DNA of 64,000 nt from Ilumatobacteraceae bacterium (GCA_032118015.1 JAULYE010000010.1:5113-69112); one strand, 5' to 3'; shown: positions 12,656 to 31,612, counted from the first letter of the stretch. The notes: generated from the letters alone by a model not told the origin. A program made the numbers and translations.

Positions 12656-12889
12656 ACCCCGTTCCTGATACCTCATCCGGGGTCATGGCGAGGATCGTTG
12701 GTTCGGGGACGACCGTACATTCGAGGTGGTCCTTGAACACGTCGTCGATCGGGGCCCTCAAGCGGATTGGTTTACGCCGGGCAATCGCATATTGGATGCT
12801 TGGAGTGCCATTGCCGGCCATGATACAGTTCAGTAGACGTGTGGTAAGGCGCAATTGAGCAGGCGCCCGTCGACAAGAGGTGAGTGACG

Positions 12890-13807
12890 ATGTTCGGGCA
12901 ACGACGACGTGGCGCGTCTTTTATTGTGACGACCTTGATGACCGTGGGCCTGGTGGCCGTCACGGGAGAGTCAGGGCCGGTGTCGGCCGCTGACGAGGGC
13001 GAGGTTTTGCGGTGCACCCCAGTGGTGTATCTCGCTCAGGGAACATCGGTGACAGTCGAGGGCGTTACGGTCACCGCCACACTAAATACGGCACGTGAAA
13101 GTGTGGCCGGAGCCATCAACCCGTACGCGTATTTCTTGGGAGCCCTGTTTGAGCCGGTTGGGTTCGTGGGCTGGCCGGCATCCTTCGAGACGTCCTGGGA
13201 GTTCGATCCACCGATTCCCGCTGTGCGGTTCGAGACGCAATATCACACTGACGGGATAGGAGAGACGTTCACCTTGACTGCGAGAAACTCGAATCTCGCG
13301 AGCCCTCAGATTTGGACGACCGCGATCGTCGATCAGAACACGACCGTTCAAACCGTATTCTCGTCACCTGCGGACAAGATCGATGCGAGGTTCTCGCCGG
13401 AAGTTGGTCAGTTCGCCTCGTATCTCATCATGTGCATTCCCATCCGATCGGCGACCGTGCAAGCGCCGTCCGGCTCCATGGTCACGGGCGAACAACTGCC
13501 GTCACTCGTTGCGACCGCTTTCGTGACACCAGGGATTGTGTCCACAGCAGCTAACACACCAGTGACATTCGATCAGGAGCCAACGTGCGGTCTGGAAGAT
13601 GGTCTCGGCAACTCGGTCGTGCTCTCGAGCTCGACACCCGCGGGGACATACGCCGTCGTCTGTGTCGGTGGCACGGCGACGGGTTTCGAATTACTCACTT
13701 ACCTCGACGGAGTGTTCGTGGTAGAGGAGTACCGGCGGGGCTTTCCAGAGGACTACCTCGAGCGTCGTTTGGCTGCCGAGGCCTCGCTTCTTCCTGACAC
13801 GCATTGA
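12890..13807 (+). CDS. Secreted protein A2 (tandem paralog of A1), ending ...LLPDTH-stop
   Basis: Signal peptide MFGQRRRGASFIVTTLMTVGLVAVTGESGPVSAA. The last ~80 aa are nearly identical to A1. The last codons are gac acg cat tga. Confidence 0.75.
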   Translation: MFGQRRRGASFIVTTLMTVGLVAVTGESGPVSAADEGEVLRCTPVVYLAQGTSVTVEGVTVTATLNTARESVAGAINPYAYFLGALFEPVGFVGWPASFETSWEFDPPIPAVRFETQYHTDGIGETFTLTARNSNLASPQIWTTAIVDQNTTVQTVFSSPADKIDARFSPEVGQFASYLIMCIPIRSATVQAPSGSMVTGEQLPSLVATAFVTPGIVSTAANTPVTFDQEPTCGLEDGLGNSVVLSSSTPAGTYAVVCVGGTATGFELLTYLDGVFVVEEYRRGFPEDYLERRLAAEASLLPDTH

Positions 13808-13883: not shown

Positions 13884-14906
13884 ATGGGTGTGGTCCCACT
13901 GGCGCTGATCGGCGGAGTTCTCGGCGGATCGCAGACAGCCGGCGCAGGTGCCGCCGTCTTCGGCGTCGACTACTTCATATCCGCGCCGCTGGTACAGGGG
14001 TCGTACGTATCGTTGACGTCTGAATTTATCCAGGAAACATTTGATGGCTATGGCTATGGCTCGGGCCCGTGCCCCAGCTCGTTGGCTAGCGGAGCAATCA
14101 CGGTGACCGCCGGCGTGTGCACAGTCAGCGCATTAAACGAGTACGGGGGAGCGAGTTCCACAGGTGCAACTGCCAACGTGGATGACGCTGGCTGGAACTA
14201 TGCCACGACTGGAGGCACTGGACTGATCGAGTTCACGATGTCGGCTCCACAGAGGTACCTCGGATTTTGGTGGAGTGCTGGTTCGGCCTCGAACGCTGTG
14301 ACGTTCTACAGCGGTGAAACGGAGATCTTGAGTTTGACCACTGCTGAAGTCTTCGCCCTGTTCGGCAGTGCCCCCACGAACCAGGCCACGTACACGGTGG
14401 ACGACGTATCAACTGTTGATGCCATTGACCCGAGCATCGAAGCCACAAACGGATCGGCGTATTTCAAGCATCATTACTTCGGGAATCCACGCGGATACTC
14501 CACGACCTCTCCAACGTGGGCTCAATGGAACTTGCACACCTTGGCAAGATCGGAGCCGTTCGTCTACCTCCACATTTTCAGCAAGGGTGGTCTCTACTTC
14601 GACCGCGTGGTCTTTTCGGGTGGTGGATTCGAATTCGACAACTTCGTCGTCTCGCCGTTGGCCCAGACGCCGAATGGCTCTCTCGTGCCTGTGGGAGGTG
14701 TGGAGGGCACGCCTCCTCCAGACTTCGAACCAGATAGTCGTCCGCGCACTCCGTCGATCGATCTGGATCACTACCTCGTGCGGACGGAGTTGCCTGACAC
14801 CGGCGCTGAGTCTGGTGCCGTTGCGTGGATCGGGGCGTGCCTCGTGCTTGGCGGAGGTGCCATCACGGTCAGGGTTCGTCGATCAAGGGTGCGCCTGACA
14901 GCTTGA
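13884..14906 (+). CDS. LPDTG cell-wall-anchored surface protein, family B member 1
   Basis: The C-terminus TELPDTGAESGAVAWIGACLVLGGGAITVRVRRSRVRLTA is a tripartite sortase signal. Conserved blocks are shared with 19929..20984 and 25746..26699. An in-frame TAA lies at 13875, so the start cannot be further upstream. The signal peptide is weak. Confidence 0.75.
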   Translation: MGVVPLALIGGVLGGSQTAGAGAAVFGVDYFISAPLVQGSYVSLTSEFIQETFDGYGYGSGPCPSSLASGAITVTAGVCTVSALNEYGGASSTGATANVDDAGWNYATTGGTGLIEFTMSAPQRYLGFWWSAGSASNAVTFYSGETEILSLTTAEVFALFGSAPTNQATYTVDDVSTVDAIDPSIEATNGSAYFKHHYFGNPRGYSTTSPTWAQWNLHTLARSEPFVYLHIFSKGGLYFDRVVFSGGGFEFDNFVVSPLAQTPNGSLVPVGGVEGTPPPDFEPDSRPRTPSIDLDHYLVRTELPDTGAESGAVAWIGACLVLGGGAITVRVRRSRVRLTA

Positions 14907-19821: not shown

Positions 19822-19928
19822 GAGAATTCCCTAAAGTCGGACTGAATAGATACGTCACAGAGAGTAGATCAATCGGGTCTCAGTAGCGCAGTTTTTTAGG
19901 AACATTGTTGGTTTATGGTGAGGACATT

Positions 19929-20984
19929 GTGAGCGGAACAGCAGTTAAGCGCGTCCTATTTTTCGTTGTCCCCCTCCTCACGGTCGGTGGCACCCTTGGC
20001 GGGTCATCGGGGGTGAGCGCCGGAGTGTCCGAGTACGGCGTGGACTACTACATCTCACCACCACTCGTTCAGGGATCGTACGTGCCTGGGCAATCCGAGG
20101 ACTTCAACGATTTTGATACCGCGGCTACTTGTCCGCCGACGATTGCCAATGGAGAGATCGCCGTGACGGGTGCGTGCAAAACTCTGATAGCGGATGGATC
20201 CGGAGGAGCAACTGCGGAAGCAATAGATCCGACTCCCACAGTGGGCGCACCAGGTTCGGATTACGCAAGCACAGACTCTGGGGGAGAGATCACCTTCATC
20301 ATGCCCGAGGCTCAGCGTTATCTGGGTTTCTGGTGGAGCGCAGGTTCCGGCGGCAACATTGTTCGATTCTTTGACGGGGACAACGAGGTGCTCTCGTTGA
20401 ACACCGATGACCTAACGGCTCTTCTCGGGTTAGCGCCAACCAGTGTCGGTGACTTCGGATCGACAGGATTTATCGAGTCCCTGGATACGGCCTCGACCTA
20501 CGTCAGACATCACTATTTTGGTAATCCGCGCGGTGTGTTGGCCAGCGCGGCTGGCAGCCCACCGGTGATGACGGCAGCGCTGTGGGAGGGGAACACAACC
20601 AATTACGTGCCCGTCCCTGGCGGAACCATTTACTCGGAACCCTTCGTCTACCTTCATGTCCTCGGACAGGGAAACTTGAGCTTCGACCGGGTGACCTTTT
20701 CCGGCTTCGGCTTCGAATTCGACAACTTCGTGGTGTCGCCGTTCAGTCAAACACCACAGGGCTCATTGGTTCTTGCTGGTTCCGCCGCCGGAACGCCGCC
20801 GCCGGACTTCGAGCCGCCAGCTGGTGGCGGTCGCACACCGTCGATCGATCTCGGTCATTATCTCGAACGCTCTGAGTTGCCCAACACGGGCCGCCGCAAC
20901 ATGAGTCTCGAGTGGATGGCAGCAACGTTCGTTGCAATCGGAACGATTCTCTTGGGTGCACAGCGACGCATACGTCGCGTGTGA
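19929..20984 (+). CDS. LPNTG cell-wall-anchored surface protein, family B member 2
   Basis: GTG 19929 gives (M)SGTAVKRVLFFVVPLLTVGGTLGG, preceded by ggtgagga. The C-terminus is SELPNTGRRNMSLEWMAATFVAIGTILLGAQRRIRRV. It shares the GVDYYISPPLVQGSYV, QRYLGFWWSAGSGGN, HHYFGNPRG and FEFDNFVVSP blocks. Confidence 0.8.
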   Translation: MSGTAVKRVLFFVVPLLTVGGTLGGSSGVSAGVSEYGVDYYISPPLVQGSYVPGQSEDFNDFDTAATCPPTIANGEIAVTGACKTLIADGSGGATAEAIDPTPTVGAPGSDYASTDSGGEITFIMPEAQRYLGFWWSAGSGGNIVRFFDGDNEVLSLNTDDLTALLGLAPTSVGDFGSTGFIESLDTASTYVRHHYFGNPRGVLASAAGSPPVMTAALWEGNTTNYVPVPGGTIYSEPFVYLHVLGQGNLSFDRVTFSGFGFEFDNFVVSPFSQTPQGSLVLAGSAAGTPPPDFEPPAGGGRTPSIDLGHYLERSELPNTGRRNMSLEWMAATFVAIGTILLGAQRRIRRV

Positions 20985-21163
20985 AAGCTCTCGGTACATC
21001 GTTGACGTTCGCTGTTGTTTCTCGCATGTGACCGAAAGGACACCAGGAGTCGGCACCGAAAGGTCACCTGTTGTTCACTGTGCACCTACTGTCATGGCAT
21101 CGGCATTCGCCGATTCATGACACGACGTTTCGATCCCGAATCGTCCGTTCACAGGAGGAATCA

Positions 21164-21733
21164 ATGCGTAAGCGTTCAATATCCCTCGCCCTGCTTGCAG
21201 CAGGATCGTTGATCTTCACAGCGTGTGGAGAGGACCCGGCCAACACAGCGACCACCCAAGCCCCGGCTGAGGAAAATGGCGAAGCCGAAGCAGGGGGCGA
21301 CATCATTGCTGTCGCCACGGCTGCCGGATCTTTCAACACTCTTGCTGCGGCTCTCGAAGCGGCTGGTCTGATCGAAACCCTTCAGGGTGAAGGTCCATTC
21401 ACAGTGTTCGCACCGACAGATGAAGCGTTCGCTGCACTGCCTGAAGGTCTTCTCGATGCCCTGCTGCTCCCCGAAAATGTGGAGATTCTCACGGCCATCT
21501 TGCTGTTCCATGTGATCTCCGGATCTGAAGTCACTTCCGACATGGTGGCTGCTGGTGATGTCGAGATGGCAAGTGGTGCCATGGCAACGATCGTCGTCGA
21601 TGGCGAGACCATCACGATCGCCGGTGCGCCAATCACAGCGGTGGACGTTCAGGCGTCCAATGGCGTCATTCACGTCCTCAGCAGTGTCATGGTGCCAGCT
21701 GACGTCGACGTCGCAGCACTTCTTGCTGGCTGA
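21164..21733 (+). CDS. Fasciclin (FAS1) domain lipoprotein
   Basis: aggagg SD, then MRKRSISLALLAAGSLIFTACGEDP (lipobox). FAS1 motifs [17 protein letters not shown] and NGVIHVLSSVMVP. Confidence 0.9.
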   Translation: MRKRSISLALLAAGSLIFTACGEDPANTATTQAPAEENGEAEAGGDIIAVATAAGSFNTLAAALEAAGLIETLQGEGPFTVFAPTDEAFAALPEGLLDALLLPENVEILTAILLFHVISGSEVTSDMVAAGDVEMASGAMATIVVDGETITIAGAPITAVDVQASNGVIHVLSSVMVPADVDVAALLAG

Positions 21734-21799
21734 TTTCCTGACGCAGTCACCCAGTGCAATCTGATAGTTGGGGCGAGGTCTTCGGACTTCGCCCCAACT
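21711..21799. repeat. 89-bp direct repeat, copy 1 (last 23 nt of the fasciclin gene plus its terminator)
   Basis: tcgcagcacttcttgctggctgatttcctgacgcagtcac[c]cagtgcaatctgatagttggggcgaggtcttcggacttcgccccaact. It is repeated at 22492-22580 with a single mismatch. Confidence 0.95.
21766..21799 (+). terminator. Stem-loop terminator of the fasciclin gene (15-bp stem with one G.U pair, TTCG loop)
   Basis: agttggggcgaggtc-ttcg-gacttcgccccaact, located 33 nt after the stop codon. No U-tract, as is common in Actinobacteria. Confidence 0.7.
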
Positions 21800-21833
21800 C
21801 GTTGTCCGGTGCTAGTGCACTTGGTCCATGATG

Positions 21834-22283
21834 TCAGGGGAGATTTTGCAAGTCGTCATGATCTTTGGGCCGTCCACTCGCTTGCTTGTTGACCTTGAGA
21901 TCGTTCAATGAAATAACGGGAACCAGTAATCCACTGATTATCCGAGATTCGGAACGTCCGTAACAAGCATCGAATGTGACTCCATCGATGTCCATGAGAA
22001 TCTCGATGCGAATTGGTGCTTCACCCATTCGAACGATGCGGTCAGGGTCTTCGAACAGTGGAGGAGTCAGATCTGGAGTGTCGAACCCAAATTCACGTAG
22101 ACACGCAACAATTCGTTCAGCGTTGGTGCGATTTCTTGCAACCCAGATGTCCAAATCTGCAGTGGCGCGCGGGTAGCCATGAAGTGCAACTGCAAACCCT
22201 CCGACGAGGAGATATTCAACGTTGTGGTCGTTGAGTAATTTCAAGAACTCGGAGAAGTCTTGAGGAAACTCGATCTTGTCCAT
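21834..22283 (-). CDS. Nucleotidyltransferase-fold protein (MNT/AbiEii-like; putative toxin-antitoxin or defence component)
   Basis: FSEFLKLLNDHNVEYLLVGGFAVALHGYPRATADLDIWV is the classic GG...HG..R.T.D.D minimal NTase motif. Confidence 0.7.
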   Translation of the reverse strand: MDKIEFPQDFSEFLKLLNDHNVEYLLVGGFAVALHGYPRATADLDIWVARNRTNAERIVACLREFGFDTPDLTPPLFEDPDRIVRMGEAPIRIEILMDIDGVTFDACYGRSESRIISGLLVPVISLNDLKVNKQASGRPKDHDDLQNLP

Positions 22284-22416
22284 AGTTCATCCTGACCAGT
22301 TCAAGAACGTGTTGAAGACGGGCTTCGGGGGCCTGAGTTGACCAGTACGCCTTATCCAATTCGGTGGCTTCTTGGTGAGTGGCCGAAATGTGCAGCGTTT
22401 TCTCCATCGAGCCCAA
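22216..22416 (-). CDS. Small partner protein of the NTase (66 aa)
   Basis: MGSMEKTLHISATHQEATELDKAYWSTQAPEARLQHVLELVR...RLLRVLEI. It lies immediately upstream of the NTase and overlaps it by 68 nt out of frame. The call is uncertain. Confidence 0.4.
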   Translation of the reverse strand: MGSMEKTLHISATHQEATELDKAYWSTQAPEARLQHVLELVRMNYGQDRVSSRLLRVLEITQRPQR

Positions 22417-22491
22417 ATTCTACCGATCGATGCGAAGAGTTGGAGATAAGACTCCCGTGCTCCTTGGCCCGACTACCCAACGCAATCGTGA

Positions 22492-22580
22492 TCGCAGCAC
22501 TTCTTGCTGGCTGATTTCCTGACGCAGTCACTCAGTGCAATCTGATAGTTGGGGCGAGGTCTTCGGACTTCGCCCCAACT
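22492..22580. repeat. 89-bp direct repeat, copy 2 (orphan fasciclin 3' end plus terminator hairpin at 22547-22580)
   Basis: Identical to 21711-21799 except for one c-to-t change. Confidence 0.95.
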
Positions 22581-22732
22581 ATCTCACCTTCGTTGCGGAG
22601 GCAGTACGCGAGATTCTCCGCCTATCATGAAAAAATGCAAAGACTGAAGAGTTTCATCGCCCCAGTCGTCGTTATCGCCGTCGCCACTGCCGTCTTCATA
22701 GCTAGTGCAGTTCGACTTTGACGTGAGTCGGT

Positions 22733-22957
22733 TTATTTCTTTTCGTCCGGCAAATTATCGATGCCATTACCGATTGCCATGAATGTTGGAGCCCAGAGCC
22801 CAACGAAAATTCCAAAGCGCTCTCCTGATGCTTGAACCTCGCCGTTATCTGTTCCGCCCTGAGTGAACCAGATGACGATGCTCGCAATAACCGACAGGAA
22901 TCCAAGCGCATAGGAAAGATTCGCGCTGTAGCCCCATGATTTCAATTTCCTCAACAT
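22733..22957 (-). CDS. Small two-TM membrane protein (74 aa)
   Basis: A strong aaggag SD lies 5 nt before ATG 22957. MLRKLKSWGYSANLSYALGFLSVIASIVIWF...FGIFVGLWAPTFMAIGNG. It is divergent from the GNAT-AAA gene. Confidence 0.6.
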   Translation of the reverse strand: MLRKLKSWGYSANLSYALGFLSVIASIVIWFTQGGTDNGEVQASGERFGIFVGLWAPTFMAIGNGIDNLPDEKK

Positions 22958-23161
22958 ACGTACTCCTTGTTGCAAATTGAAATGAGCTTTTGCCCACGTG
23001 CGAATTGTCCCACACAGTCAAAGAACCTCACGGGATGCTGGGCGGCGTCCCGGCACGTCCCATTCCTTTGCGTGACTCGATCATTGACAAAGGTTGGAGT
23101 CATCACCAGACTCGAGGCACATCAGAGGCGTCTCGGCCAAAAGGTCGGTAAGAATACAACT

Positions 23162-24430
23162 ATGAGCGTCGTCATTCGGGATCTGCTTCTCACAGACATC
23201 GGCCCTGCTGTGCGTCTCCTGGAGGAATGTCGAAATCTGGCTGATACGAAACCGGCAGATATCGCACAATTCGTGAATGACGTTTCCTCTGGCGCACCAG
23301 GAGTCGTCGCGGTTCTCGGTGAAAAGATCGTGGGAATCATCCAAGCTCGCACCGTCGCTGACGATGCCTGGATCAACGTTGTTGTTATCGATAGTTCCTG
23401 GCGTCATCAAGGACTGGGTTCCAAGATGCTGCAAAGGCTCGAAGAAAAGTTGATGCATCTGGGTGTACGGAAAATCTCTGCTTTGCTGTCGAATTCCCAA
23501 GCAGGAGAAACCGCTTTGGTGAATCGTGGTTTCACCTCCACTCACGATCTCGTGCTGTACGAGAAGTTGGAGCCGATTGCTCCGACTGCGATGCGTATCG
23601 TCGATCAATATGGCGGGGAGATTCTGCCGACAACGCTTTGGGACCGTGTTGCTGGAATGCATGAGGAAAAACGGGTCATTGATGGGCGTGTAGTGGCGCC
23701 CTTGGCCGATCCAACGACTGCTGAGAAAGTGGGAGTCAAGGCTCCAGCAACTGTCTTGCTTTTTGGCCCTCCGGGCACTGGCAAGACAACTTTTGCCAAA
23801 GCCATTGCGGGTCGTCTTGGGTGGCCATTTATTGAACTACTGCCGTCCAAATTGGAAAGCGGAAGTGACTCGATGTCGTCGGAACTTCGAACTGCCATCA
23901 GTGATCTTCTCCAGTTGGATCACGCGGTTGTCTTCATCGATGAATTCGATGAGATCGCCTCGGCCAGGGAACACAATCCAACAACAAAAGGGGTGGTGAA
24001 CGAATTATTGAAAATGATTCCTCTCTATCGATCCACCCCGGGACACTTGTTGGTCTGTGCCACGAATTTCGTAGGAGACATTGACTCGGCTGTGTTGCGT
24101 CCGGGCAGATTTGACTTGGTGATCCCGATCGGCCCGCCCGATCTCGTGGCGCGACGTGCATTGTGGAACGCTGCCCTTTCGTCGCTGGACCACCGTGGCG
24201 TCGAAATTGAAAAGCTCGCGCTTCAAACCGAGGGTTACACACCTGGTGATGTGGAATTGGCGGCCCAAAGGGCTGCAGCTGCTGCCTTTGACCGCATTCG
24301 AGAAGGTGCTGAGCCTCCGCATATTTCCGCAGACGATCTTGATGCGGCTATCGCCCGTACTCGAGCCTCGGTGACGAGTGAAATTCGCCAACGATTCAGC
24401 GAAGAGGCCGATCGATTCGCTCGGGTGTGA
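23162..24430 (+). CDS. GNAT acetyltransferase / AAA+ ATPase fusion protein
   Basis: Start at ATG 23162 (MSVVIRDLL). GNAT motif A is WRHQGLGSKMLQRLEEKL. The AAA+ part has Walker A LLFGPPGTGKTT, Walker B AVVFIDEFDE, NFVGDIDSAVLRPGRFD (second region of homology with Arg finger) and a C-terminal helical lid. Confidence 0.8.
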   Translation: MSVVIRDLLLTDIGPAVRLLEECRNLADTKPADIAQFVNDVSSGAPGVVAVLGEKIVGIIQARTVADDAWINVVVIDSSWRHQGLGSKMLQRLEEKLMHLGVRKISALLSNSQAGETALVNRGFTSTHDLVLYEKLEPIAPTAMRIVDQYGGEILPTTLWDRVAGMHEEKRVIDGRVVAPLADPTTAEKVGVKAPATVLLFGPPGTGKTTFAKAIAGRLGWPFIELLPSKLESGSDSMSSELRTAISDLLQLDHAVVFIDEFDEIASAREHNPTTKGVVNELLKMIPLYRSTPGHLLVCATNFVGDIDSAVLRPGRFDLVIPIGPPDLVARRALWNAALSSLDHRGVEIEKLALQTEGYTPGDVELAAQRAAAAAFDRIREGAEPPHISADDLDAAIARTRASVTSEIRQRFSEEADRFARV

Positions 24431-24495
24431 ATGTCTCAAGGGTTTGATCTCAGCGAGTTCCTCAGTCGTCGGACCGACCTCGAGTCCCGCGTCAC

Positions 24496-24837
24496 GGCGA
24501 GCCGGCCAACACGGCCACCACCGAAGTCACGATAGAAGACAGTGACTCCAGCGAGGAGTTGGGCGACATCGTTTCCGTCGCATCTGCTGCTGGCTCGTTC
24601 TCGACCTTGGCTGCGGCTCTCGAAGCTGCCGGTCTCATTGAGACCCTTCAAGGTGAAGGTCCTTTCACCGTGTTCGCACCCACGGATGAGGCATTCGCTG
24701 CCCTTCCCGATGGGTTGCTCGACGCCCTGCTCCTCCCGGAGAACGTTGAAGTTTTGAAGTCCATCTTGCTGTTCCACGTGATCAGCTCGGTCATGGTTCC
24801 GTCCGATGTGGATGTGGCTGCGCTGCTTGCTGGCTGA
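24496..24837 (+). pseudogene. Fasciclin paralog remnant (no signal peptide or lipobox; ~58-aa internal deletion)
   Basis: [11 protein letters not shown]...[53 protein letters not shown] aligns with 21164..21733. An in-frame TGA lies upstream at 24445. The sequence jumps from LLFHVIS directly to [16 protein letters not shown]. Confidence 0.7.
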
Positions 24838-24865
24838 TTCCAGACGAAAATCGATCAATTCGAAA

Positions 24866-24899
24866 AGTGGGGGTGAGGCTTGCGGGCTTCACCCCCACT
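24866..24899 (+). terminator. Terminator hairpin, variant B copy 1 (14-bp stem with one G.U pair)
   Basis: agtgggggtgaggc-ttgcgg-gcttcacccccact. It has the same architecture as the 21766 hairpin and is repeated at 26817-26850. Confidence 0.7.
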
Positions 24900-24989
24900 C
24901 GTTTGTGGGAGCGAAAGAAAAAGTTTTCCGCTGGGGCCTCTCTTTCGAATTCACCGCTCACGCCTATTCTGTTATCGGTGGATCAAACA

Positions 24990-25583
24990 GTGACAAGTCG
25001 CAAACGATCTCGGGAACCAGAGACGATGGAAAGGATTCTCATCAGCGCCCGCAAAGAGATTGCGGCGAAGGGAATTCTCGGTCTTCGTGTCGCCGATGTT
25101 GCAGAGGGAGCATTTTCCTCTGTGACTCAGATCTACCGCTACTTCGGTGATCGAAACGGACTCTTGGCCCGCGTACTCGGCGATTGGTACGAGGAGTCCC
25201 TTGATCAGAGTCTGACCACTATCCAGAAGCGACTCGACGTAATCGAAAACGTGACGATCGATGACATTGCTGATGCGCTACCCAGTCCGACCGAGGATTG
25301 GGTACGCGTTCACAGTGGCATGCGGCTTCAGATTCTTGCGACATCTGTGACCAATTCAGCGCTTCAGGAACGCCTGAAGGCAATCGCCAGCGTCCATTTG
25401 CTTCGATGGAACGAGTACATCGAACGCGTGGCATCGAGGCTTGGTGACGAAGAAGAGTTGGATGATCGAGTGTTCACGATCATGATCGCGATGCAGATGC
25501 CGTACTACCGGTTCCTACTCGATGACGGCGGTTTCAGTGAATCGGAGTACCGCGATTTTTTACGACAGAAGTTGCGCCGCTGA
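24990..25583 (+). CDS. TetR-family transcriptional regulator
   Basis: SRKRSREPETMERILISARKEIAAKGILGLRVADVAEGAFSSVTQIYRYFGDRNGLL is a TetR N-terminal HTH. The start is GTG 24990 or ATG 25026. Confidence 0.8.
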   Translation: MTSRKRSREPETMERILISARKEIAAKGILGLRVADVAEGAFSSVTQIYRYFGDRNGLLARVLGDWYEESLDQSLTTIQKRLDVIENVTIDDIADALPSPTEDWVRVHSGMRLQILATSVTNSALQERLKAIASVHLLRWNEYIERVASRLGDEEELDDRVFTIMIAMQMPYYRFLLDDGGFSESEYRDFLRQKLRR

Positions 25584-25622
25584 CGCAGGCGCGCTTGGTG
25601 AGTTGATTGTGATGAACTGAAG

Positions 25623-25650
25623 CTTGCGGAAGAAAATTTTCTTCCGCAAG
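25623..25650. promoter_or_regulatory. Perfect 28-bp palindrome (cttgcggaagaaaa/ttttcttccgcaag): candidate TetR operator or bidirectional terminator
   Basis: Verified base by base. It lies 40 nt after the TetR stop and 96 nt before the LPNTG gene start. Confidence 0.5.
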
Positions 25651-25745
25651 TCGGTCATTGTCTCTTTGTTCCCGAGCACATAAACAGGTGGGGCTCACAA
25701 TGTGCATGGCTCTTACGCCCATTACCGAAAGTTGAAGGAACAATC

Positions 25746-26699
25746 ATGAGTTTTCGTCTTCGTGCAGGTACTGCGGCATCCACGGTCGTGTTGGTGGCTG
25801 CCGCCGCTCTGGCACAGGCTGCCCCAGCTGGTGCCATCGGCGCGGTCTTCGGACTCGACTACTACATCAGCGCGCCATTGGTCCAAGGAACACACGTATC
25901 AGGCGGAGTTAAGGAAAATTTCAACTCCTTGGTATCGTGCAGCGGCTCGATCGGAACGGGCAGTGCAATTGCGGTTTCCGGAGATTGCGTGCTGGAGAGT
26001 TCTGCGAATCAATTCGGTGGGGCCGTAACGGACAGCGCGACCCCAACGGCTGGAGGCAGCGGTTCAGCTTTCCCAATTGCTGACAATGATCCAGGAACCA
26101 CCTTCACTCTTTCTGGACCGCAGTGTTATCTCGGCTTTTACTGGACTGCCGGCTCGGGTGGCAACACCGTTGAGTTCTTCAGTGACGGGGAACTGGTTCT
26201 CTCTTTCAACAGTGATCAAATTATTGCAATCCTCAATCCAAGTGAAGTAGCAACACTCGTGTCAGTAGGTGGCACGACGTATCAGAAGGCACTTTGGTAC
26301 GGCAATCCCCGCGGTCACTCGGATATCGATTCCAATGGAATACCCGACGGAACCTCAACCCTCAACGATGGCGAGCCTTATGTCTACCTCAACGTTTATG
26401 GTAAGGGTGGTTTGACGTTCAACTCGGTTCGGTTCTCTGGCCCCAACTTCGAATTCGACAATCTTGCGTTCTCTTCTTCGTGCGAGACGCCCCCGAGTTC
26501 GAGTGTCTATCTTGGCTACGTTGGAGAAGGCGAACCTGAGTCGCCGAACTTGCGGATTAATCCAGACTACCTCACACGAACGACCGAGGAACTTCCGAAC
26601 ACCGGGGCCTCATCAAATACTCTTAACTGGGTCGCTTTGGCCCTCGCCGGAGGAGGCATTTCTCTCCTAAGGATTCGACGAAGACTTGCCGAGTACTGA
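25746..26699 (+). CDS. LPNTG cell-wall-anchored surface protein, family B member 3
   Basis: Signal peptide MSFRLRAGTAASTVVLVAAAALAQAAPAGA. Blocks: GLDYYISAPLVQGTHV, CYLGFYWTAGSGGN, WYGNPRG, EPYVYLN, FEFDNLAFS. The C-terminus is EELPNTGASSNTLNWVALALAGGGISLLRIRRRL. Confidence 0.8.
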   Translation: MSFRLRAGTAASTVVLVAAAALAQAAPAGAIGAVFGLDYYISAPLVQGTHVSGGVKENFNSLVSCSGSIGTGSAIAVSGDCVLESSANQFGGAVTDSATPTAGGSGSAFPIADNDPGTTFTLSGPQCYLGFYWTAGSGGNTVEFFSDGELVLSFNSDQIIAILNPSEVATLVSVGGTTYQKALWYGNPRGHSDIDSNGIPDGTSTLNDGEPYVYLNVYGKGGLTFNSVRFSGPNFEFDNLAFSSSCETPPSSSVYLGYVGEGEPESPNLRINPDYLTRTTEELPNTGASSNTLNWVALALAGGGISLLRIRRRLAEY

Positions 26700-26710
26700 T
26701 CTTTAGAACT

Positions 26711-26788
26711 TCCAACGGCGTGATCCACGTGATCAGCTCGGTCATGGTTCCGTCTGATGTGGATGTGGCTGCTCTTCTTGCTGGCTGA
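26711..26788 (+). pseudogene. Orphan fasciclin 3' fragment ([25 protein letters not shown]-stop)
   Basis: Matches the last 25 codons of the fasciclin genes. It is followed by hairpin B copy 2. Confidence 0.8.
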
Positions 26789-26816
26789 TTCCAGAAGAAG
26801 ATCGAAATCCTCTAAA

Positions 26817-26850
26817 AGTGGGGGTGAGGCTTGCGGGCTTCACCCCCACT
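26817..26850 (+). terminator. Terminator hairpin, variant B copy 2
   Basis: Identical to 24866-24899. Confidence 0.7.
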
Positions 26851-26895: not shown

Positions 26896-27387
26896 ATGAG
26901 CGTCGTGATTCGAGATTTACTGTCGACCGATATCAGCCCCGCTGTGCGGCTGTTGGAAGAGTGTCGATCCCTACCTGATACGAAACCGGCCGATTTCGCC
27001 CAATTCGTGAGCGATGTGTCATCTGGTGCTCCAGGTGTCGTCGCGGTCGACGCGGCCTAGCGCCACAAAGGAATCGGCTCGGCGATGCTGCAGCGTCTGG
27101 AAGAAAAGTTGATGCATCTGGGTGTACGGAAAATCTCTGCTTTGCTGTCGAATTCCCAAGCAGGAGAAACCGCTTTGGTGAATCGTGGTTTCACCTCCAC
27201 TCACGATCTCGTGCTGTACGAGAAGTTCGAGCCCATTGCTCCGACTGCGATGCGTATCGTCGATCAATATGGTGGCGAGATTCTGTCGGCCGATCTGTGG
27301 GATCGGGTAGCTGGCATGCACGAAGAAAAGAGAATCATCGACGGGCGTGTCGTAGCGCCACTCGCCGACCCGAACAAAGCAGAATAA
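26896..27387 (+). pseudogene. Decayed GNAT/linker half of a second GNAT-AAA+ gene
   Basis: MSVVIRDLLSTDISPAVRLLEEC... parallels copy 1. It has a ~26-codon deletion, an in-frame TAG (27058-27060) before RHKGIGSAMLQRLEEKL, and an in-frame TAA (27385-27387) where copy 1 has Lys. Confidence 0.75.
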
Positions 27388-27393
27388 GTCGGT

Positions 27394-28089
27394 GTGAAGG
27401 CCCCGGCGACGGTGCTGCTCTTTGGCCCTCCAGGAGCCGGGAAGACGACCTTCGCCAAAGCAATAGCCGGCCGTCTGGGATGGCCGTTCATCGAGTTGCT
27501 GCCGTCCAAATTGGAGAGCGGAAGTGATTCGATGTCTTCGGAGTTGCGCACGGCAATGAACGACTTGTTGCAACTGGATCGTGCTGTCGTCTTCATCGAC
27601 GAGTTCGACGAAATCGCATCGGCCAGAGAACGCAACCCCACGACCAAAGGAGTGGTCAACGAATTGCTGAAGATGATTCCGGCGTATCGATCTGCGCCGG
27701 GACATCTCTTGGTGTGCGCCACGAATTTCGTCGGCGAAATCGACTCGGCTGTGTTGCGTCCGGGCAGATTTGACTTGGTGATTCCGATCGGTCCGCCCGA
27801 TCTGACAGCCCGGATTGCTCTGTGGGAAGCAGCGCTCTCACGCCTCGATCAACGCGGAGTCGACATCGACAATCTGGCGAGGAACACCGAGGGTTACACA
27901 CCTGGTGACGTCGAGCTGGCTGCCCAACGAGCAGCAGCTGCCGCATTCGATCGGATTCGCGAAGGGGCAGGACCCTCTTACGTCTCAGCTGACGACCTCG
28001 ACAGGGCGATCGGGCGCACCCGGGCATCGGTCACCAGTGACATTCGCCAGCGGTTCGCCGACGAAGCAGATCGCTTCGCCCGCGTCTAG
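27394..28089 (+). CDS. AAA+ ATPase module of the second copy (possibly still expressed from GTG 27394)
   Basis: Intact Walker A (GPPGAGKTT), Walker B (VVFIDEFDE) and RPGRFD. Most differences from copy 1 appear to be synonymous (by eye). Confidence 0.55.
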   Translation: MKAPATVLLFGPPGAGKTTFAKAIAGRLGWPFIELLPSKLESGSDSMSSELRTAMNDLLQLDRAVVFIDEFDEIASARERNPTTKGVVNELLKMIPAYRSAPGHLLVCATNFVGEIDSAVLRPGRFDLVIPIGPPDLTARIALWEAALSRLDQRGVDIDNLARNTEGYTPGDVELAAQRAAAAAFDRIREGAGPSYVSADDLDRAIGRTRASVTSDIRQRFADEADRFARV

Positions 28090-28193: not shown

Positions 28194-28266
28194 GCCTCCG
28201 TAGCTCAGTGGATAGAGCAACGGTTTCCTAAACCGCAGGTCGCAAGTTCGATTCTTGCCGGGGGCG
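28194..28266 (+). tRNA. tRNA-Arg (anticodon CCU)
   Basis: GCCTCCG-TA-GCTC-AGTGGATA-GAGC-A-ACGGT-TTCCTAA-ACCGC-AGGTC-GCAAG-TTCGATT-CTTGC-CGGGGGC-G. Cloverleaf with T33, anticodon CCT and A37. CCA is not encoded. Confidence 0.85.
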
Positions 28267-28576
28267 CCGCAGAACACCTTGATACCGCAGGTTTTCTTGG
28301 ATGCGCCATCTCGTGCTGACATCAGTTGTCTGCCGAGTTCTGTATCCATTTCTAGATGAGCCGTGGATGATCATCTACCTCACGTCATGGAGGCAGCTCA
28401 CCTTCTCGCGCCAGCAAACTTCATGCATGTGATTTGAAATTGCGAACGACCACACCGGAATGATTGGTGACATCTGTATGTGGTATTGAAGAGTTCCGAC
28501 GGTAGACCAGTAAGTGGCAACTGTTAGGTGGGTGGTTCTGGCGGATCACGCAGTATTGAGGTGGGAGCACCCTTTC

Positions 28577-31500
28577 ATGTTTATTTGGCTATTGGGGCAA
28601 AGAGGTTCTGGGCATAGGTCGATCATCGTGGGAGCGCCTGCGCGATTGCTTGCCGTCGTGCTCTTGGGCGTTGCGCTGATCCAGGTCTTTGCAAGCGACG
28701 AAGTTGCAGGGGATACGCACTGCGATCTCACCGTTGGTGAGATCGTTGACGTGGACAGCCCCGTACTCGACACCATTCAAAAAGCGATCGATGCAGCTCA
28801 GCCCGGTAACACCGTGTGCATTCCTGCGGGCTCGTATACCGAGAACATCGTCGTCGCAAAGCAGATCACTCTCACAGGAAGCGAAATAGCGGATGATCCA
28901 ACGACAATCAATTCTGGATCTGCCGGAATACCGGTCGTCACCGTCTCAGGGACCGGTAGCCCCGAGGGTGGTCGTCTCGAAATCAGTCACGTGACAGTCA
29001 CTGGCGCACTGGGTACGACGAATATTGGCGCTGGAATTCTCGTCAGTTCGCCTTCAGATCAGACGGGGCTGTCGTTCACCTCTGTGACTTCGACTGGCAA
29101 CGAAGGTGCGGGTATTGCCTTCAATGGCACGCCGTCCATATCTGATGTCGTGATGGACGACGTCACTTCATCCCTAAATGGCGAAGCGGGGATTCGCATC
29201 GCGTCTTCAATTTTGTCCTTCAATGGCCTGACCGTGAACAACTCCACCATCTCCTCAAACGGACACAATGGATTCAGCTTCAACCCGAGTGGATCCAACG
29301 TCGTGGGGACGAATTTCACGTTCACGGACAGCACATTTGAACTGAACAACACCAAGGGAGTGGTCAACTCTCATGATTTGTCGTTCTTCGGCTTCAATGG
29401 AAATGCCACACTCGACACAGTCTCTGTCACTACGGCGAGCGGGACTCCTGCGCATGGCGGATATGGAGTTGTCTTCCTCGGCAAGACTCCCTTCACTGCA
29501 GCAGGCAGTATCCGTCTCGAGAACGTCACCGTAAACGGGGCAGTAGGAAAGGGAGCACTCACATTTCAGCGATACACGGACCTTGCGTCCGTCGTGATGG
29601 TTGACGTGGATGTATCGGGAACCGTGGCCCCTTGGGGCCAGGTGATCGTCGATCACACTGGAGTGACTCCTCTCGACCTCGGCACTACCACAACGAAGAG
29701 CATCGTTCTCTGGAAAAGCGGAGGTGTCGACGCGACCGAAGTCAATCTCCTGACTGCAGCTGGAACCCCGCTCAATCGAAGCTCGCTCGCCGATGGATTC
29801 GATGCCGAAGATCAGATCGGTCACGCTGTTGACTTGGTGGGGCTCGGATTGGTGCGTTGGAAAGAGTCAACCCTCTTCGTCACACCATCGAGCTTCGCCG
29901 CTCCCTCGTCGACATCAGCCAGTATTCAACGCGCGATCAACATCTCAGTTGCTGGGGACACAGTGAATGTTGAAGCGGGTGTGTACCCCGAGGGAATGGT
30001 GAACCTCGACAAGGAGGGACTGACACTTCGAGGAGCTCAGTGGGGCGTTGACGCATTTACCCGAGGGCCATCTGGGATACCAGACAACGAGACGATCCTC
30101 AGTAATTCAGGCAGAATTTTCGACTTGAATGCACCGAACATAACTATTGATGGCTTCGTCTTTTCCAATCTCGGCAACAGAGCATTGGACAGCTATTCGT
30201 ACATAGACGGATTGACGATCAAAAACACCATTTTTGTCGTCACAAGTAACAGTTCTGACAGTGGTGCAATTCAATTCGGTGGTGGAAGTGGAAGCAGTGG
30301 GCCGTACACGGCGAATTATTTCACCTTCGAGCGAAATTATCTCACGGGAACAGGAAGCGGCCCTGTGCTCTACCTCGGACATCAGATGTCCGGTGGAACG
30401 ATCAAGGGCAATGTGTTCAACAGTCGGAGACTCACGTTCGGTCCATTCGGGCAGCCCGACGGTTGGGTCATCGAAGGCAACACTTTTGATGGGAATGTTG
30501 CGGGGGTTGCTTCAATAGCCCCCGGTGGAGCTTCCGGTACCTATGTCGGTTATGGGTTCAACGCTCAATTCGGTGATGCAGTATTCCGAAATAATGTCGT
30601 GTCGAAGATGTATCTCGGCATCGGCCAAATCAGCCTCGTTGATGGTCAAATTATTGGCAACACTTTCGAAGACAACTACGCGGGGGCATTCCAACTCTGG
30701 GGCGGTGAATACGAGTCCCCAGTTTCCCGTGATGTGCTCATCGCCAACAATCTCTTCTCGTACAACGGCACTGACAATACGTCGGATGATGCCGGGTTCT
30801 TATCGCAGGGATTCCGTCTTCGTCCTGGCTGTGATGTGGCTGAACCGTGCTCCGACCCAACGACCCCAAACGCGGCGTTGATTCAAGTTTTCCAAAATCG
30901 ATTCATCGATTTGAATCAAAGCGGTGGCAAGACCCAAGTTTGGGCTGTGCGTAACAATTATCCTGGCGTCGTCGACGCAGAGTTCAATTATTGGGGCTCA
31001 GATGTTGTGACTGTTCTCGAGTCGAAGGTTGGTAAGGGAAGTTCCGACGCGGGCTCGGGGGCGGGTGACGTGTTCCCATGGATTTCGTCGTACACACCTG
31101 ATCCGACCAAGGTAGGTCAGCCAGGATTCTGGCCGATTGATATCCAATCGCGCAGCTTGATCACCGCAGGAGAAGGGGATGAGTCGGTGAGTGGCGATCC
31201 CAGCCTTGGATCGCCGTCGATCTCTTTCGGCTCGGCCCTCGCTGGACCAATCTCGGTGACGTTCTCCTCCATTGTCGCGACACCCGAGACAGCCCTTCTC
31301 TTCGAAAGCCCTCCGTTCAACATGAGCACCGCTGTGCTTGTCGACATATCGATCGACGGGGATGCCGAGCCTCCCTACAAAATTTGTCTCGCACGGTCCG
31401 ACGACTTTGACACGATCTGGCACTTCGAGGATGATGCATGGGTCAACATCACTGACGCAGTTCAGGGCCCCGATGGTTTCCTCTGTGGGACTACAGGGAC

Positions 31501-31612
31501 GTTGTCCCCATTCGCAGTAGCGGAGGCTCTGCCTCCGGAACCAGAGGGACCGGGTTCGAGACCGCCATCTTTTGACTTTGAACTTCCTTTGCTGTTGCCA
31601 GACACGCGCTGA
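28577..31612 (+). CDS. Large secreted right-handed parallel beta-helix (PbH1/pectate-lyase-fold) protein, ending ...LLLPDTR-stop
   Basis: Signal-like MFIWLLGQRGSGHRSIIVGAPARLLAVVLLGVALIQVFASDE (ATG 28577; GTG 28514 is an alternative). There are many N/G/T-rich approximately 22-residue beta-helix coils (ITLTGS..., NGEAGIRIASS..., ISSNGHNGFSF...). The last codons are gac acg cgc tga. Confidence 0.7.
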   Translation: MFIWLLGQRGSGHRSIIVGAPARLLAVVLLGVALIQVFASDEVAGDTHCDLTVGEIVDVDSPVLDTIQKAIDAAQPGNTVCIPAGSYTENIVVAKQITLTGSEIADDPTTINSGSAGIPVVTVSGTGSPEGGRLEISHVTVTGALGTTNIGAGILVSSPSDQTGLSFTSVTSTGNEGAGIAFNGTPSISDVVMDDVTSSLNGEAGIRIASSILSFNGLTVNNSTISSNGHNGFSFNPSGSNVVGTNFTFTDSTFELNNTKGVVNSHDLSFFGFNGNATLDTVSVTTASGTPAHGGYGVVFLGKTPFTAAGSIRLENVTVNGAVGKGALTFQRYTDLASVVMVDVDVSGTVAPWGQVIVDHTGVTPLDLGTTTTKSIVLWKSGGVDATEVNLLTAAGTPLNRSSLADGFDAEDQIGHAVDLVGLGLVRWKESTLFVTPSSFAAPSSTSASIQRAINISVAGDTVNVEAGVYPEGMVNLDKEGLTLRGAQWGVDAFTRGPSGIPDNETILSNSGRIFDLNAPNITIDGFVFSNLGNRALDSYSYIDGLTIKNTIFVVTSNSSDSGAIQFGGGSGSSGPYTANYFTFERNYLTGTGSGPVLYLGHQMSGGTIKGNVFNSRRLTFGPFGQPDGWVIEGNTFDGNVAGVASIAPGGASGTYVGYGFNAQFGDAVFRNNVVSKMYLGIGQISLVDGQIIGNTFEDNYAGAFQLWGGEYESPVSRDVLIANNLFSYNGTDNTSDDAGFLSQGFRLRPGCDVAEPCSDPTTPNAALIQVFQNRFIDLNQSGGKTQVWAVRNNYPGVVDAEFNYWGSDVVTVLESKVGKGSSDAGSGAGDVFPWISSYTPDPTKVGQPGFWPIDIQSRSLITAGEGDESVSGDPSLGSPSISFGSALAGPISVTFSSIVATPETALLFESPPFNMSTAVLVDISIDGDAEPPYKICLARSDDFDTIWHFEDDAWVNITDAVQGPDGFLCGTTGTLSPFAVAEALPPEPEGPGSRPPSFDFELPLLLPDTR

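What the first reader, a model, noticed from the sequence alone, without database searches (positions are those of the whole stretch)
21711..26850. Cassette-like mosaic delimited by four copies of a fasciclin-gene 3' end plus terminator hairpin
The module [last codons ...[14 protein letters not shown]-stop + GC-rich hairpin] occurs four times. Variant A is at 21711-21799, attached to the intact gene, and again at 22492-22580 (89 bp, one mismatch). Variant B is at about 24790-24899, attached to a truncated and internally deleted paralog, and again at 26711-26850. Different cargo lies between the copies: an NTase pair; a 2-TM protein plus a GNAT-AAA+ fusion; and a TetR regulator plus an LPNTG surface protein. 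A second GNAT-AAA+ copy and tRNA-Arg follow. The arrangement resembles serial insertion at, or recombination between, a gene 3' end that is regenerated each time, as at attachment sites of integrative elements or integron-like cassette boundaries. No integrase is present within the array. The region is visibly more AT-rich than its flanks (not computed).
Basis: partly seen in the sequence, partly recalled or inferred. Interest (0 to 1): 0.65.

Follow-up and report, generated by a model that had tools for sequence, protein, structure and literature searches.

The report
Repeated gene-end scars in island
In a freshwater actinobacterium, the last codons and terminator hairpin of a fasciclin gene occur four times because extra DNA was twice added right behind that gene by recombination that copied the gene's end; this is an integrase-less variant of how genomic islands are known to grow.

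Summary
Module A/A' (21711-21799 / 22492-22580) is 89 nt with 1 mismatch. Module B/B' (24770-24899 / 26721-26850) is about 91% identical. Both pairs end exactly at the 3' foot of a 14-18 bp hairpin, and there are no other copies in the window.

The hairpin is the native terminator of the fasciclin gene. It follows every ortholog I could fetch and shows compensatory changes.

The fasciclin gene and tRNA-Arg(CCT) border a hypervariable island in Ilumatobacteraceae (acIV). In this genome the island holds one intact gene set (fas1, GNAT-AAA1) and decayed duplicates (fas2, the B' tail, GNAT-AAA2 with two in-frame stops). GNAT-AAA1 is closer to another MAG's ortholog than to copy 2, so this is not a recent in-situ duplication.

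A' and B' lie at the far ends of two small cargos: a DUF6036 nucleotidyltransferase pair, and TetR plus an LPXTG protein.

Two independent assemblies carry the A cassette with no differences inside it, about 1% divergent flanks, and the A/A' SNP swapped.

No integrase was found in the window, and the hairpins lack attC features. Related genomes show analogous scars: a duplicated tRNA-Arg flank and a duplicated esterase 3' end.

Best reading: single-crossover (Campbell-type) additive recombination at the gene end, enzyme unknown. Interest is moderate.

The parts
19905..20984 (+). LPNTG1, an LPXTG-type surface protein (359 aa). It is a paralog of 13884-14906 (47% aa) and of LPNTG2 (35% aa).
21161..21733 (+). 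fas1, an intact fasciclin lipoprotein gene (190 aa)
   Evidence: Pfam PF02469 E=1.6e-30; orthologs at 74-90% aa
21711..21799 (+). Module A: the last 25 nt of fas1, a 30-nt spacer and the hairpin (21766-21799)
21800..22491 (-). Cargo A: NTase (21834-22283) plus a small upstream ORF (22216-22416), with its own -10-like box (TAGAAT) conserved with L008/L009
   Evidence: 0 differences from L001/L002
22492..22580 (+). Module A': a detached copy of A. Its stem is extended to 18 bp by the right flank (GAT..ATC).
22635..22721 (+). Hydrophobic ORF of 28 aa (MQRLKSFIAPVVVIAVATAVFIASAVRL); status unknown
22733..22975 (-). 2-TM small protein (TM2). In relatives it is usually on the same strand as GNAT-AAA, either downstream or upstream of it.
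23162..24430 (+). GNAT-AAA1, intact (422 aa). Its C-terminal 231 aa are 96% identical to the ortholog in L033 and 88% to copy 2.
24485..24837 (+). fas2 pseudogene. It starts just after the lipobox position with no start codon or signal peptide, and has a 153-nt internal slippage deletion. It is 75% nt identical to fas1.
24770..24899 (+). Module B: the fas2 tail, spacer and hairpin (24866-24899)
24900..26710 (+). Cargo B: TetR (25026-25583) plus LPNTG2 (25746-26699)
26711..26850 (+). Module B': 78 nt of fasciclin 3' coding sequence, a spacer and the hairpin (26817-26850), followed by a U-rich tract. It differs from B by 3 synonymous changes in the coding part. The hairpin is 34/34 identical and the spacer is diverged.
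26896..28089 (+). GNAT-AAA2 pseudogene, with stops at 27058-27060 and 27385-27387 and a 25-codon deletion. It sits at the position next to the tRNA that is also seen in L014.
28194..28268 (+). tRNA-Arg(CCT), the other border of the island

Best explanation
The module is the normal 3' end and terminator hairpin of a fasciclin gene. That gene forms one border of a hypervariable island; the other border is tRNA-Arg(CCT).

Twice, a small piece of foreign or circularised DNA that carried its own copy of the fasciclin 3' end recombined with the resident copy by a single crossover (Campbell-type insertion). This placed the cargo directly behind the terminator and left a second, partial copy of the gene end at the far side of the cargo:
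- A-cargo-A' is recent.
- B-cargo-B' is older, or came from a more diverged donor.

The same island also took up a second, xenologous set of the resident genes (LPNTG1?-fas1...GNAT-AAA1). That set is joined illegitimately inside fas2. Afterwards the redundant copies (fas2, GNAT-AAA2) decayed.

The retained hairpins still serve as terminators: for LPNTG2 in the sense direction, and for TM2 and the NTase operon in antisense.

Shown:
- the anatomy and the nature of the hairpin;
- the variability of the island;
- the xenology and decay of the duplicated genes;
- exchange at A/A' between strains.

Inferred:
- the single-crossover topology;
- a circular or otherwise end-joined intermediate;
- the enzyme, which could be host RecA acting on 90-130 bp of homology or a site-specific recombinase encoded elsewhere.
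For: 1. The repeats directly flank discrete cargo and share the same right boundary at the hairpin foot, while their left boundaries differ (25 versus 78 nt of coding sequence).
2. The copies attached to genes (A, B) keep 6-7 nt of post-hairpin sequence (CGTTGT / CGTTTGT) that resembles the GTTGYGC found after ortholog hairpins. The right flanks of A' and B' complete a longer stem (A') or a U-tract terminator (B').
3. The hairpin follows all fetched orthologs. 98% of cells are paired and 10 of 15 pairs show double changes; G-U pairs appear only on the sense strand.
4. In the P0054 group, fas and tRNA-Arg(CCT) are about 60 nt apart. In the P0056 contig fas is followed by Gmad2 and GNAT-AAA. In L014 GNAT-AAA is followed by tRNA-Arg. 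So the interval is a variable island.
5. L001/L002 versus the window: 14 (10) flank mismatches, 0 in the 780 nt between the two SNP positions (Poisson P about 4e-4), and the A/A' SNP is swapped. This is what crossovers on different sides of the SNP would give.
6. L177 is a mosaic fas allele. Its last 300 nt are 95-100% identical to fas1, but the 3' UTR is unrelated from the stop codon onward.
7. Analogous scars occur in relatives with no integrase in the cassettes. In L008 an NTase cassette lies between two 127-nt copies of the tRNA-Arg 5' flank. L042 has an array of such copies ending in the real tRNA. In L069 the last 150 nt of an esterase gene are repeated behind a cargo that includes GNAT-AAA, and 16 of 16 coding differences are synonymous. 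The second copy therefore came from a functional allele and not from a staggered-cut target duplication.
8. GNAT-AAA1 is 96% identical to L033 and 88% to copy 2; copy 2 and fas2 are pseudogenes.
Against: - No empty site, circular junction or presence/absence polymorphism was found. Only 2-3 short contigs of this population are on record.
- The module pattern has no hit in the metagenome or viral collections.
- The swapped SNP could also arise from gene conversion plus inter-strain recombination, or from a parallel mutation (my estimate p about 0.005).
- B' lies 11 nt after LPNTG2, and LPNTG1 also precedes fas1. B' could therefore simply be what a deletion left of a full fasciclin gene behind LPNTG2.
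- How a circle carrying a fasciclin 3' end would first arise is not explained.
- The B and B' hairpins are 34/34 identical although the spacer differs at about 8 of 28 positions. That needs selection or gene conversion in addition to the model.
Confidence: 0.5

Rival explanations
1. Decay only. The island once held three or four complete fasciclin paralogs, acquired as parts of larger duplicated or transferred segments. A' and B' are what deletions left of two of them. The shared right boundary merely marks the end of the conserved gene unit, and no insertion at the gene end ever took place.
For: - fas2 and GNAT-AAA2 are clearly decaying duplicates.
- An LPNTG gene precedes a fasciclin sequence twice.
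- Homology among orthologous fas units also ends a few nt after the hairpin.
- Slippage deletions occur here, such as the 153-nt deletion between 10-nt repeats.
- Gene conversion between neighbouring paralog ends occurs in this window: 12427-12650 versus 13579-13802 is 93% identical within genes that are 52% identical at the amino-acid level.
Against: - A' is 99% identical to A, but only over 89 nt, with no trace of fasciclin upstream. The cargo would have to have sat between two nearly identical fas1 copies, and several deletions would be needed.
- The swapped SNP with identical cargo is not produced by deletion or by unequal crossing-over.
- The same DR-cargo-DR pattern occurs with other border sequences in relatives.
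Confidence: 0.25
2. Site-specific accretion. An integrase encoded outside the window (or since lost) recognises the fasciclin 3' end or hairpin as attB. The two cargos are integrase-less remnants (CIME-like) flanked by attL/attR and can be mobilised in trans.
For: [quoted passage not shown]
- This matches published descriptions of decayed elements that retain attL/attR and of tandem accretion at the 3' end of target genes (PMC5704250), and of partial tRNA copies scattered in islands (bioRxiv 10.1101/2020.12.28.424599).
- L012 shows a classical 63-nt, 100% identical partial tRNA-Arg(TCT) copy bracketing a single gene.
Against: - No tyrosine or serine recombinase was found in any ORF tested across the window, nor in the analogous cassettes of relatives.
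- The repeat lengths differ (89 versus 130-140 nt).
- A-type and B-type sites differ by 25-30%, including 6 hairpin positions.
- Different relatives use unrelated duplicated sequences, which would need many different specificities.
- The cargo is very small.
Confidence: 0.17
3. An integron-like cassette array in which the hairpin acts as an attC site.
For: Hairpin-bounded small cargos, including a toxin-antitoxin-like pair. The A hairpin contains GTTGGGG..CCCCAAC.
Against: - No IntI, attI or Pc.
- The stems are perfect, with no extrahelical bases.
- The GTT/AAC order is the reverse of attC and is absent from B (AGTGGGGG..CCCCCACT).
- The repeat extends into coding sequence.
- The cargo has its own promoter, opposite orientation or two genes.
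- The hairpin is the terminator of orthologs that have no cassettes.
Confidence: 0.02
4. An assembly artefact: strain variants stitched in series, or collapsed or duplicated reads.
For: The source is evidently a metagenome-type contig. Many related contigs break near the fasciclin gene or the tRNA.
Against: - Three other assemblies reproduce the junctions around A, A' and GNAT-AAA1/fas2.
- The copies are diverged (B/B' 91%) and lie in unique contexts.
- The pseudogene features are internally consistent.
Confidence: 0.03

Closest known systems
Tandem accretion of ICE/IME/CIME elements at the 3' end of a protein-coding gene (for example ICESt1/ICESt3 and CIMEs at fda in Streptococcus thermophilus; review PMC5704250)
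   Same: [quoted passage not shown]
- An internal copy separates successive units.
- The units may lack integrase and transfer genes.
- The target gene stays intact (fas1).
   Different: - No integrase anywhere in the 64 kb.
- The units are only 0.7 and 1.8 kb.
- The repeats are 89-140 nt with unequal left ends.
- The two pairs are different sequence variants, and one sits on a pseudogene copy of the target.
- No conjugation or mobilisation genes.
tRNA-associated flexible genomic islands with scattered partial tRNA copies (tycheposons in Prochlorococcus; bioRxiv 10.1101/2020.12.28.424599)
   Same: - A streamlined aquatic bacterium.
- An island at a fixed place next to a tRNA.
- Successive additions push older ones inward.
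- Partial copies of the border remain as scars, and decayed remnants are present.
   Different: - In the window the repeated border is a protein gene's 3' end and terminator, not the tRNA.
- In relatives it is the 5' flank of tRNA-Arg(CCT) plus its first 8 nt, not the usual 3' part.
- No tyrosine recombinase, replication or packaging genes were seen.
Homology-facilitated illegitimate recombination / Campbell-type single-crossover integration (from my own knowledge; not tested here)
   Same: - One homologous anchor (the fasciclin 3' end) plus non-homologous joints.
- The anchor is duplicated.
- Patchy microhomology occurs at the L069 joint.
- The GNAT-AAA1|fas2 joint lies inside a gene.
   Different: These processes are known mainly from laboratory transformation. 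Natural arrays that repeatedly reuse the same gene end have not, to my knowledge, been described for Acidimicrobiia.
Integron gene cassettes (attC)
   Same: Small cargo bounded by imperfect palindromes; a toxin-antitoxin-like cargo.
   Different: See the membership test. The defining features tested are not met.
Intrinsic (factor-independent) terminators
   Same: - A G+C-rich 14-18 bp stem with a tetraloop, 30-55 nt after the stop codon.
- Covariation across orthologs.
- A U-tract after B' and after the L177 hairpin.
   Different: A, A' and B lack a U-tract. Termination was not measured.

Membership tests
Integron cassette array | IntI-type tyrosine recombinase with attI and Pc next to the array | tested here: not met
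   No recombinase domain in any ORF tested across the window.
Integron cassette array | attC with R''/L''-L'/R' boxes (RYYYAAC...GTTRRRY), extrahelical bases and an unpaired centre | tested here: not met
   Perfect stems with a 4-nt loop. A has GTTGGGG...CCCCAAC in the reverse order. B has no GTT/AAC.
Integron cassette array | Mostly promoterless single-ORF cassettes in one orientation | tested here: not met
   Cargo A is on the minus strand with a conserved -10-like box. Cargo B has two genes.
Site-specific accretion (ICE/IME/CIME) at a gene 3' end | Direct repeats containing the target gene's 3' end flank each unit | tested here: met
   A/A' and B/B'.
Site-specific accretion (ICE/IME/CIME) at a gene 3' end | A cognate integrase in one of the units or elsewhere in the genome | tested here: inconclusive
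   None found in the 64-kb window. The rest of the genome is not available.
Site-specific accretion (ICE/IME/CIME) at a gene 3' end | The same core sequence in all att copies | tested here: inconclusive
   The right boundary is the same. However, the A and B cores differ (6 hairpin positions; 69-79% identity overall) and the left ends differ.
Site-specific accretion (ICE/IME/CIME) at a gene 3' end | Excision / empty-site evidence | tested here: inconclusive
   Swapped SNP with identical cargo, but no empty site or circle was found.
Flexible genomic island at a conserved location | The same bordering genes with different content in related genomes | tested here: met
   The fas-to-tRNA-Arg(CCT) interval ranges from about 60 nt to several kb. 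GNAT-AAA neighbourhoods differ in 80 MAG loci.
Flexible genomic island at a conserved location | Deviating composition and surface or accessory genes | tested here: met
   G+C 0.51-0.55 against 0.59-0.60; lower GC3; LPXTG proteins, a TA-like pair and TetR.
Recent in-situ tandem duplication | Paralogs closer to each other than to orthologs elsewhere, with uniform divergence | tested here: not met
   GNAT-AAA1 is 96% identical to L033 and 88% to copy 2. fas1/fas2 are 75% nt identical, and LPNTG1/2 are 35% aa identical.
Transposon-type insertion with target-site duplication | Copies identical at birth; the non-functional copy then drifts at all codon positions | tested here: not met
   In L069, 16 of 16 coding differences are synonymous. 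In B/B', 3 of 3 are synonymous. No transposase and no terminal inverted repeats were found.
Intrinsic terminator | A stable hairpin just after the stop codon, conserved by covariation; a U-tract | tested here: met
   dG -34 to -40 kcal/mol, z -3.3 to -7.5. 10 of 15 pairs show double changes. The U-tract is present only at B' and L177.

The most novel reading that the evidence does not exclude
Genome-streamlined freshwater Acidimicrobiia may gain genes by an integrase-less cassette-accretion process. In it, the ends of resident genes are reused as docking sites: terminator hairpins, the tRNA-Arg 5' flank, or an esterase 3' end. Small cargos (the NTase pair; segments ending just after GNAT-AAA) would move between strains carrying a functional copy of the docking gene's end. 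A trans-acting factor might be involved. Candidates seen here are the DUF222-HNH protein at 7275-8609 and the ever-present GNAT-AAA+ protein whose 3' end repeatedly forms the cargo edge.
Probability: 0.12. Interest if true: 0.75.

Novelty: new variant of a known kind. Interest (0 to 1): 0.4.

Why it matters
acIV/Ilumatobacteraceae are abundant, uncultured freshwater bacteria with small genomes and few recognisable mobile elements. How their flexible islands turn over is poorly understood.

This locus gives a readable record of that turnover:
- border-gene ends duplicated at each addition;
- redundant genes decaying;
- a cassette that is identical between strains whose flanks have diverged.

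If the process needs no dedicated integrase, it would be a simple general route for additive gene gain in streamlined plankton. If a trans-acting recombinase exists, the repeats define its sites.

Tried and rejected
- Exact-pattern scans for the module found nothing in the metagenome collection or the viral collection.
- A protein scan of the metagenome collection with fas1 gave only relatives at 62% identity or less. These were of no use for context.
- An NTase scan of viral contigs found nothing.
- Exact look-ups of fas1 and LPNTG2 found no record.
- The contigs for P0056 and P0122 came without DNA. The fas-Gmad2-GNAT-AAA arrangement and the LPNTG2-ortholog context are therefore known only as gene tables.
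- Rfam has no family for the hairpin or for the tRNA-flank repeat. The repeat is not recognisable as a tRNA beyond its first 8 nt.
- I suspected that the ends of cargo A carry vestiges of the relatives' tRNA-flank repeat. Local alignments against shuffles were not significant, except for the shared -10 box, so I rejected this.
- I considered a staggered-cut long target duplication made by the NTase cassette. I rejected it because duplicated coding ends differ only synonymously.
- The NTase is a widespread DUF6036-type accessory gene on plasmids of many phyla. It has no known link to mobility.
- No tail remnants or module copies occur in the 80 GNAT-AAA loci of other species.

Full report
**Observation**

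- A (21711-21799) and A' (22492-22580) are 89 nt with one mismatch.
- B (24770-24899) and B' (26721-26850) are about 91% identical. Weaker fasciclin homology in B' starts at 26711.
- A-type and B-type copies are 69-79% alike.
- A hairpin pattern and a tail pattern each match only these four places in 64 kb, with none expected by chance.
- Reading the sequence shows that both pairs stop being alike exactly at the 3' foot of the hairpin. Their left ends differ: 25 nt of coding sequence in A' and 78 nt in B'.

Pfam confirms the genes: fasciclin, a DUF6036/DUF2204-type nucleotidyltransferase, GNAT+AAA, TetR and an LPXTG anchor. tRNA-Arg(CCT) lies at 28194-28268. G+C is 0.51-0.55 in the cargo against 0.59-0.60 in the flanks.

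**Not an artefact**

Two contigs from other assemblies (L001 from ENA, L002 from JGI) are 99.3% identical to 20998/21530-23177 and contain A, the cargo and A'. A third contig spans NTase-TM2-GNAT-AAA1-fas2.

**What the hairpin is**

The organism is a freshwater Ilumatobacteraceae (acIV); the best GNAT-AAA orthologs are in such MAGs. Fasciclin orthologs at 74-90% identity exist on many contigs. Every one I could fetch has a homologous hairpin (GGGGCGGG-CTTCGG-CCCGCCCC and variants) 30-55 nt after the stop.

On an alignment of 11 tails:
- 98% of cells pair;
- 10 of 15 pairs show changes on both sides;
- slid controls collapse to 40-59% paired.

G-U pairs occur only on the sense strand. The folds are very stable. 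B' and the L177 hairpin are followed by U-rich tracts. Rfam has no match. The hairpin is therefore the gene's own terminator and not a dedicated recombination site.

**The setting**

The left 11.5 kb of the window is core sequence (metG, tatD, ychF and others) and is syntenic with L163, where ychF lies 4 kb from the fasciclin gene. From 11.7 to 21 kb lie several LPXTG surface-protein paralogs.

In the P0054 group the fasciclin hairpin is followed about 60 nt later by tRNA-Arg(CCT) on the other strand, and 6 of 7 contigs break inside that tRNA. In the P0056 contig the order is fas, Gmad2, GNAT-AAA. In L014 GNAT-AAA is followed by tRNA-Arg(CCT), exactly as for GNAT-AAA2 in the window.

Around GNAT-AAA, which is single-copy in all 80 MAG loci, the neighbours differ from genome to genome. 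The interval between the fasciclin gene and tRNA-Arg(CCT) is thus a flexible island.

**Duplicated gene sets and decay**

- fas2 begins just after the lipobox position with no start codon or signal peptide. It is joined about 55 nt after the GNAT-AAA1 stop. It lacks 153 nt between two CCACGTGATC repeats.
- GNAT-AAA2 has two in-frame stops and a 25-codon deletion in the GNAT core.
- The copies are not recent duplicates. GNAT-AAA1 is 96% identical to the L033 ortholog over its C-terminal 231 aa but 88% to copy 2. fas1/fas2 are 75% identical in DNA. LPNTG1/2 are 35% identical in protein.

Hence a second, xenologous gene set was added, and the redundant copies are decaying.

**The two detached copies**

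A' and B' each sit at the far end of a discrete cargo that begins right behind a complete fasciclin 3' unit.
- A and B keep 6-7 nt after the hairpin (CGTTGT, CGTTTGT) that resemble the GTTGYGC seen after ortholog hairpins.
- The right flank of A' extends the stem to 18 bp, and the right flank of B' supplies a U-tract.

This is the layout expected if a molecule carrying [fas 3' end - hairpin - cargo] recombined once with the resident 3' end.

**Population evidence**

Against L001/L002 the window has 14 (10) mismatches in 1.4 kb of flanks but none in the 780 nt between positions 21751 and 22532 (Poisson P about 4e-4). The only A/A' difference is swapped: the window has C then T, and the other strains have T then C.
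- Excision and re-integration, or independent integrations, with crossovers on different sides of the SNP give this directly.
- Unequal crossing-over or simple gene conversion do not.
- A multi-step route (conversion plus inter-strain crossover) or a parallel mutation cannot be excluded.

A co-occurring allele (L177) is 95-100% identical to fas1 over the last 300 nt of the gene but has an unrelated 3' UTR from the stop codon onward. The gene end is therefore a recombination breakpoint in the population.

**Recombinase search**

No integrase, transposase or resolvase domain was found in the array or in the other ORFs tested across the window. The only mobile-type gene is a DUF222-HNH protein at 7275-8609.

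The hairpins fail the attC criteria:
- the stems are perfect;
- the GTT/AAC order is reversed in A, and the motif is absent in B;
- the repeat reaches into coding sequence.

**Analogues in relatives**

A self-comparison of 1.05 Mb of fetched loci shows that segments of 0.8-5 kb flanked by 55-160-nt direct repeats are common.
- **L008:** the homologous NTase cassette lies between two 127-nt copies (80% identical) of a sequence that is the 5' flank of tRNA-Arg(CCT) plus its first 8 nt. Copies of this sequence recur in L005, L009, L014, L034 and others.
- **L042:** two such copies precede the real flank plus tRNA, forming an array.
- **L012:** one gene lies between tRNA-Arg(TCT) and a 63-nt identical partial copy.
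- **L069:** the last 150 nt of an esterase gene recur 23 nt behind GNAT-AAA. All 16 coding differences are synonymous. The detached copy therefore evolved as part of a working gene, as expected for a donor-borne copy that regenerates the gene end and not for a staggered-cut target duplication. B/B' show the same pattern (3 of 3 differences synonymous).

None of the cassettes tested encodes a recombinase. GNAT-AAA is bracketed by such repeats in five loci, where I estimate about 0.8 would be expected by chance.

**Verdict**

The finding is real. Its core idea, additions at a gene end that is regenerated each time, is partly supported. The integron analogy is not supported.

The most likely mechanism is single-crossover additive recombination at the border of a flexible island, followed by decay of redundant copies (confidence 0.5). 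Whether host homologous recombination or an unseen site-specific enzyme does it remains open.

The main rival is pure decay of tandem paralogs (0.25).

This is a variant of known island accretion, notable for three features: the border is a protein gene's terminator, the units are tiny, and no integrase is present.

Noticed in passing
window 26896-28089: The GNAT-AAA copy next to tRNA-Arg is a pseudogene (stops at 27058 and 27385, 25-codon deletion). The intact copy 3.7 kb upstream is closer to another MAG's ortholog (96%) than to this copy (88%).
   Followed up: yes
window 21751 and 22532; L001, L002: The single A/A' SNP is swapped in two other strains, while the 780 nt between the two positions are identical and the flanks differ by about 1%.
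   Followed up: partly
L008 14636-14762 and 15388-15514; also L005 15960-16140, L009 3879-4015, L014 9800-9960: A repeat made of the 5' flank of tRNA-Arg(CCT), the first 8 nt of the tRNA and a palindrome (ATTTCGCACCA..TGGTGCGAAAT). In L008 it brackets the homologous NTase cassette. In several MAGs it precedes GNAT-AAA.
   Followed up: partly
L042 11309-11441, 12793-13039, 15861-16080: An array of two degenerate flank-plus-tRNA copies and the real tRNA-Arg(CCT), separating 1.4- and 2.8-kb cargos downstream of GNAT-AAA. No Pfam families were found in the cargo ORFs.
   Followed up: partly
L069 8886-9041 and 11284-11439: The last 150 nt of a 343-aa esterase gene are repeated 23 nt behind GNAT-AAA. 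All 16 coding differences are synonymous. There is patchy microhomology at the joint.
   Followed up: partly
L012 51-125 and 2106-2168: tRNA-Arg(TCT) and a 100% identical 63-nt partial 3' copy bracket a single 603-aa ORF with no Pfam hit. No integrase is present.
   Followed up: partly
L011 2307-2374/3697-3762; L070 9637-9734/11360-11458; L036 2812-2880/7777-7845: GNAT-AAA is tightly bracketed by direct repeats of unrelated local sequence in several genomes. The cargo edge lies 15-100 nt after its stop codon.
   Followed up: partly
window 7275-8609 (-), 8641-8681 and 9044-9084, 8802-9047 (-): A DUF222-HNH (13E12-type) gene that is absent from the syntenic L163 region. A 41-nt direct repeat lies upstream of both this gene and an 81-aa ORF that, by eye only, looks like the N-terminus of a DUF222 protein (no search was run). 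This is the only mobile-type gene in the window.
   Followed up: partly
window 11753-12655 and 12884-13807: Tandem surface-protein paralogs that are 52% identical overall but 93% identical over their last 224 nt, and 80% identical upstream. This suggests gene conversion or shared modules.
   Followed up: no
L177 599-1282: A mosaic fasciclin allele from the same sample as L002. The ends are 93-100% identical to fas1 and the middle 63-77%. The 3' UTR and hairpin are unrelated from the stop codon onward.
   Followed up: yes
window 22635-22721: A 28-aa hydrophobic ORF directly after A', convergent with TM2. It is not conserved at the DNA level next to TM2 in relatives.
   Followed up: partly
window 20985-21160 and the ortholog loci: A conserved fasciclin 5' leader (ATTTACCACTAA..GTGAACAC..AAGGAG) of about 130-150 nt. 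Upstream of it the neighbours differ in every lineage, so the promoter-to-terminator unit behaves as a self-contained block.
   Followed up: partly
window 28514-31612: A 1032-aa beta-helix protein with low G+C (0.51-0.55) immediately 3' of tRNA-Arg. It is probably another island segment.
   Followed up: no
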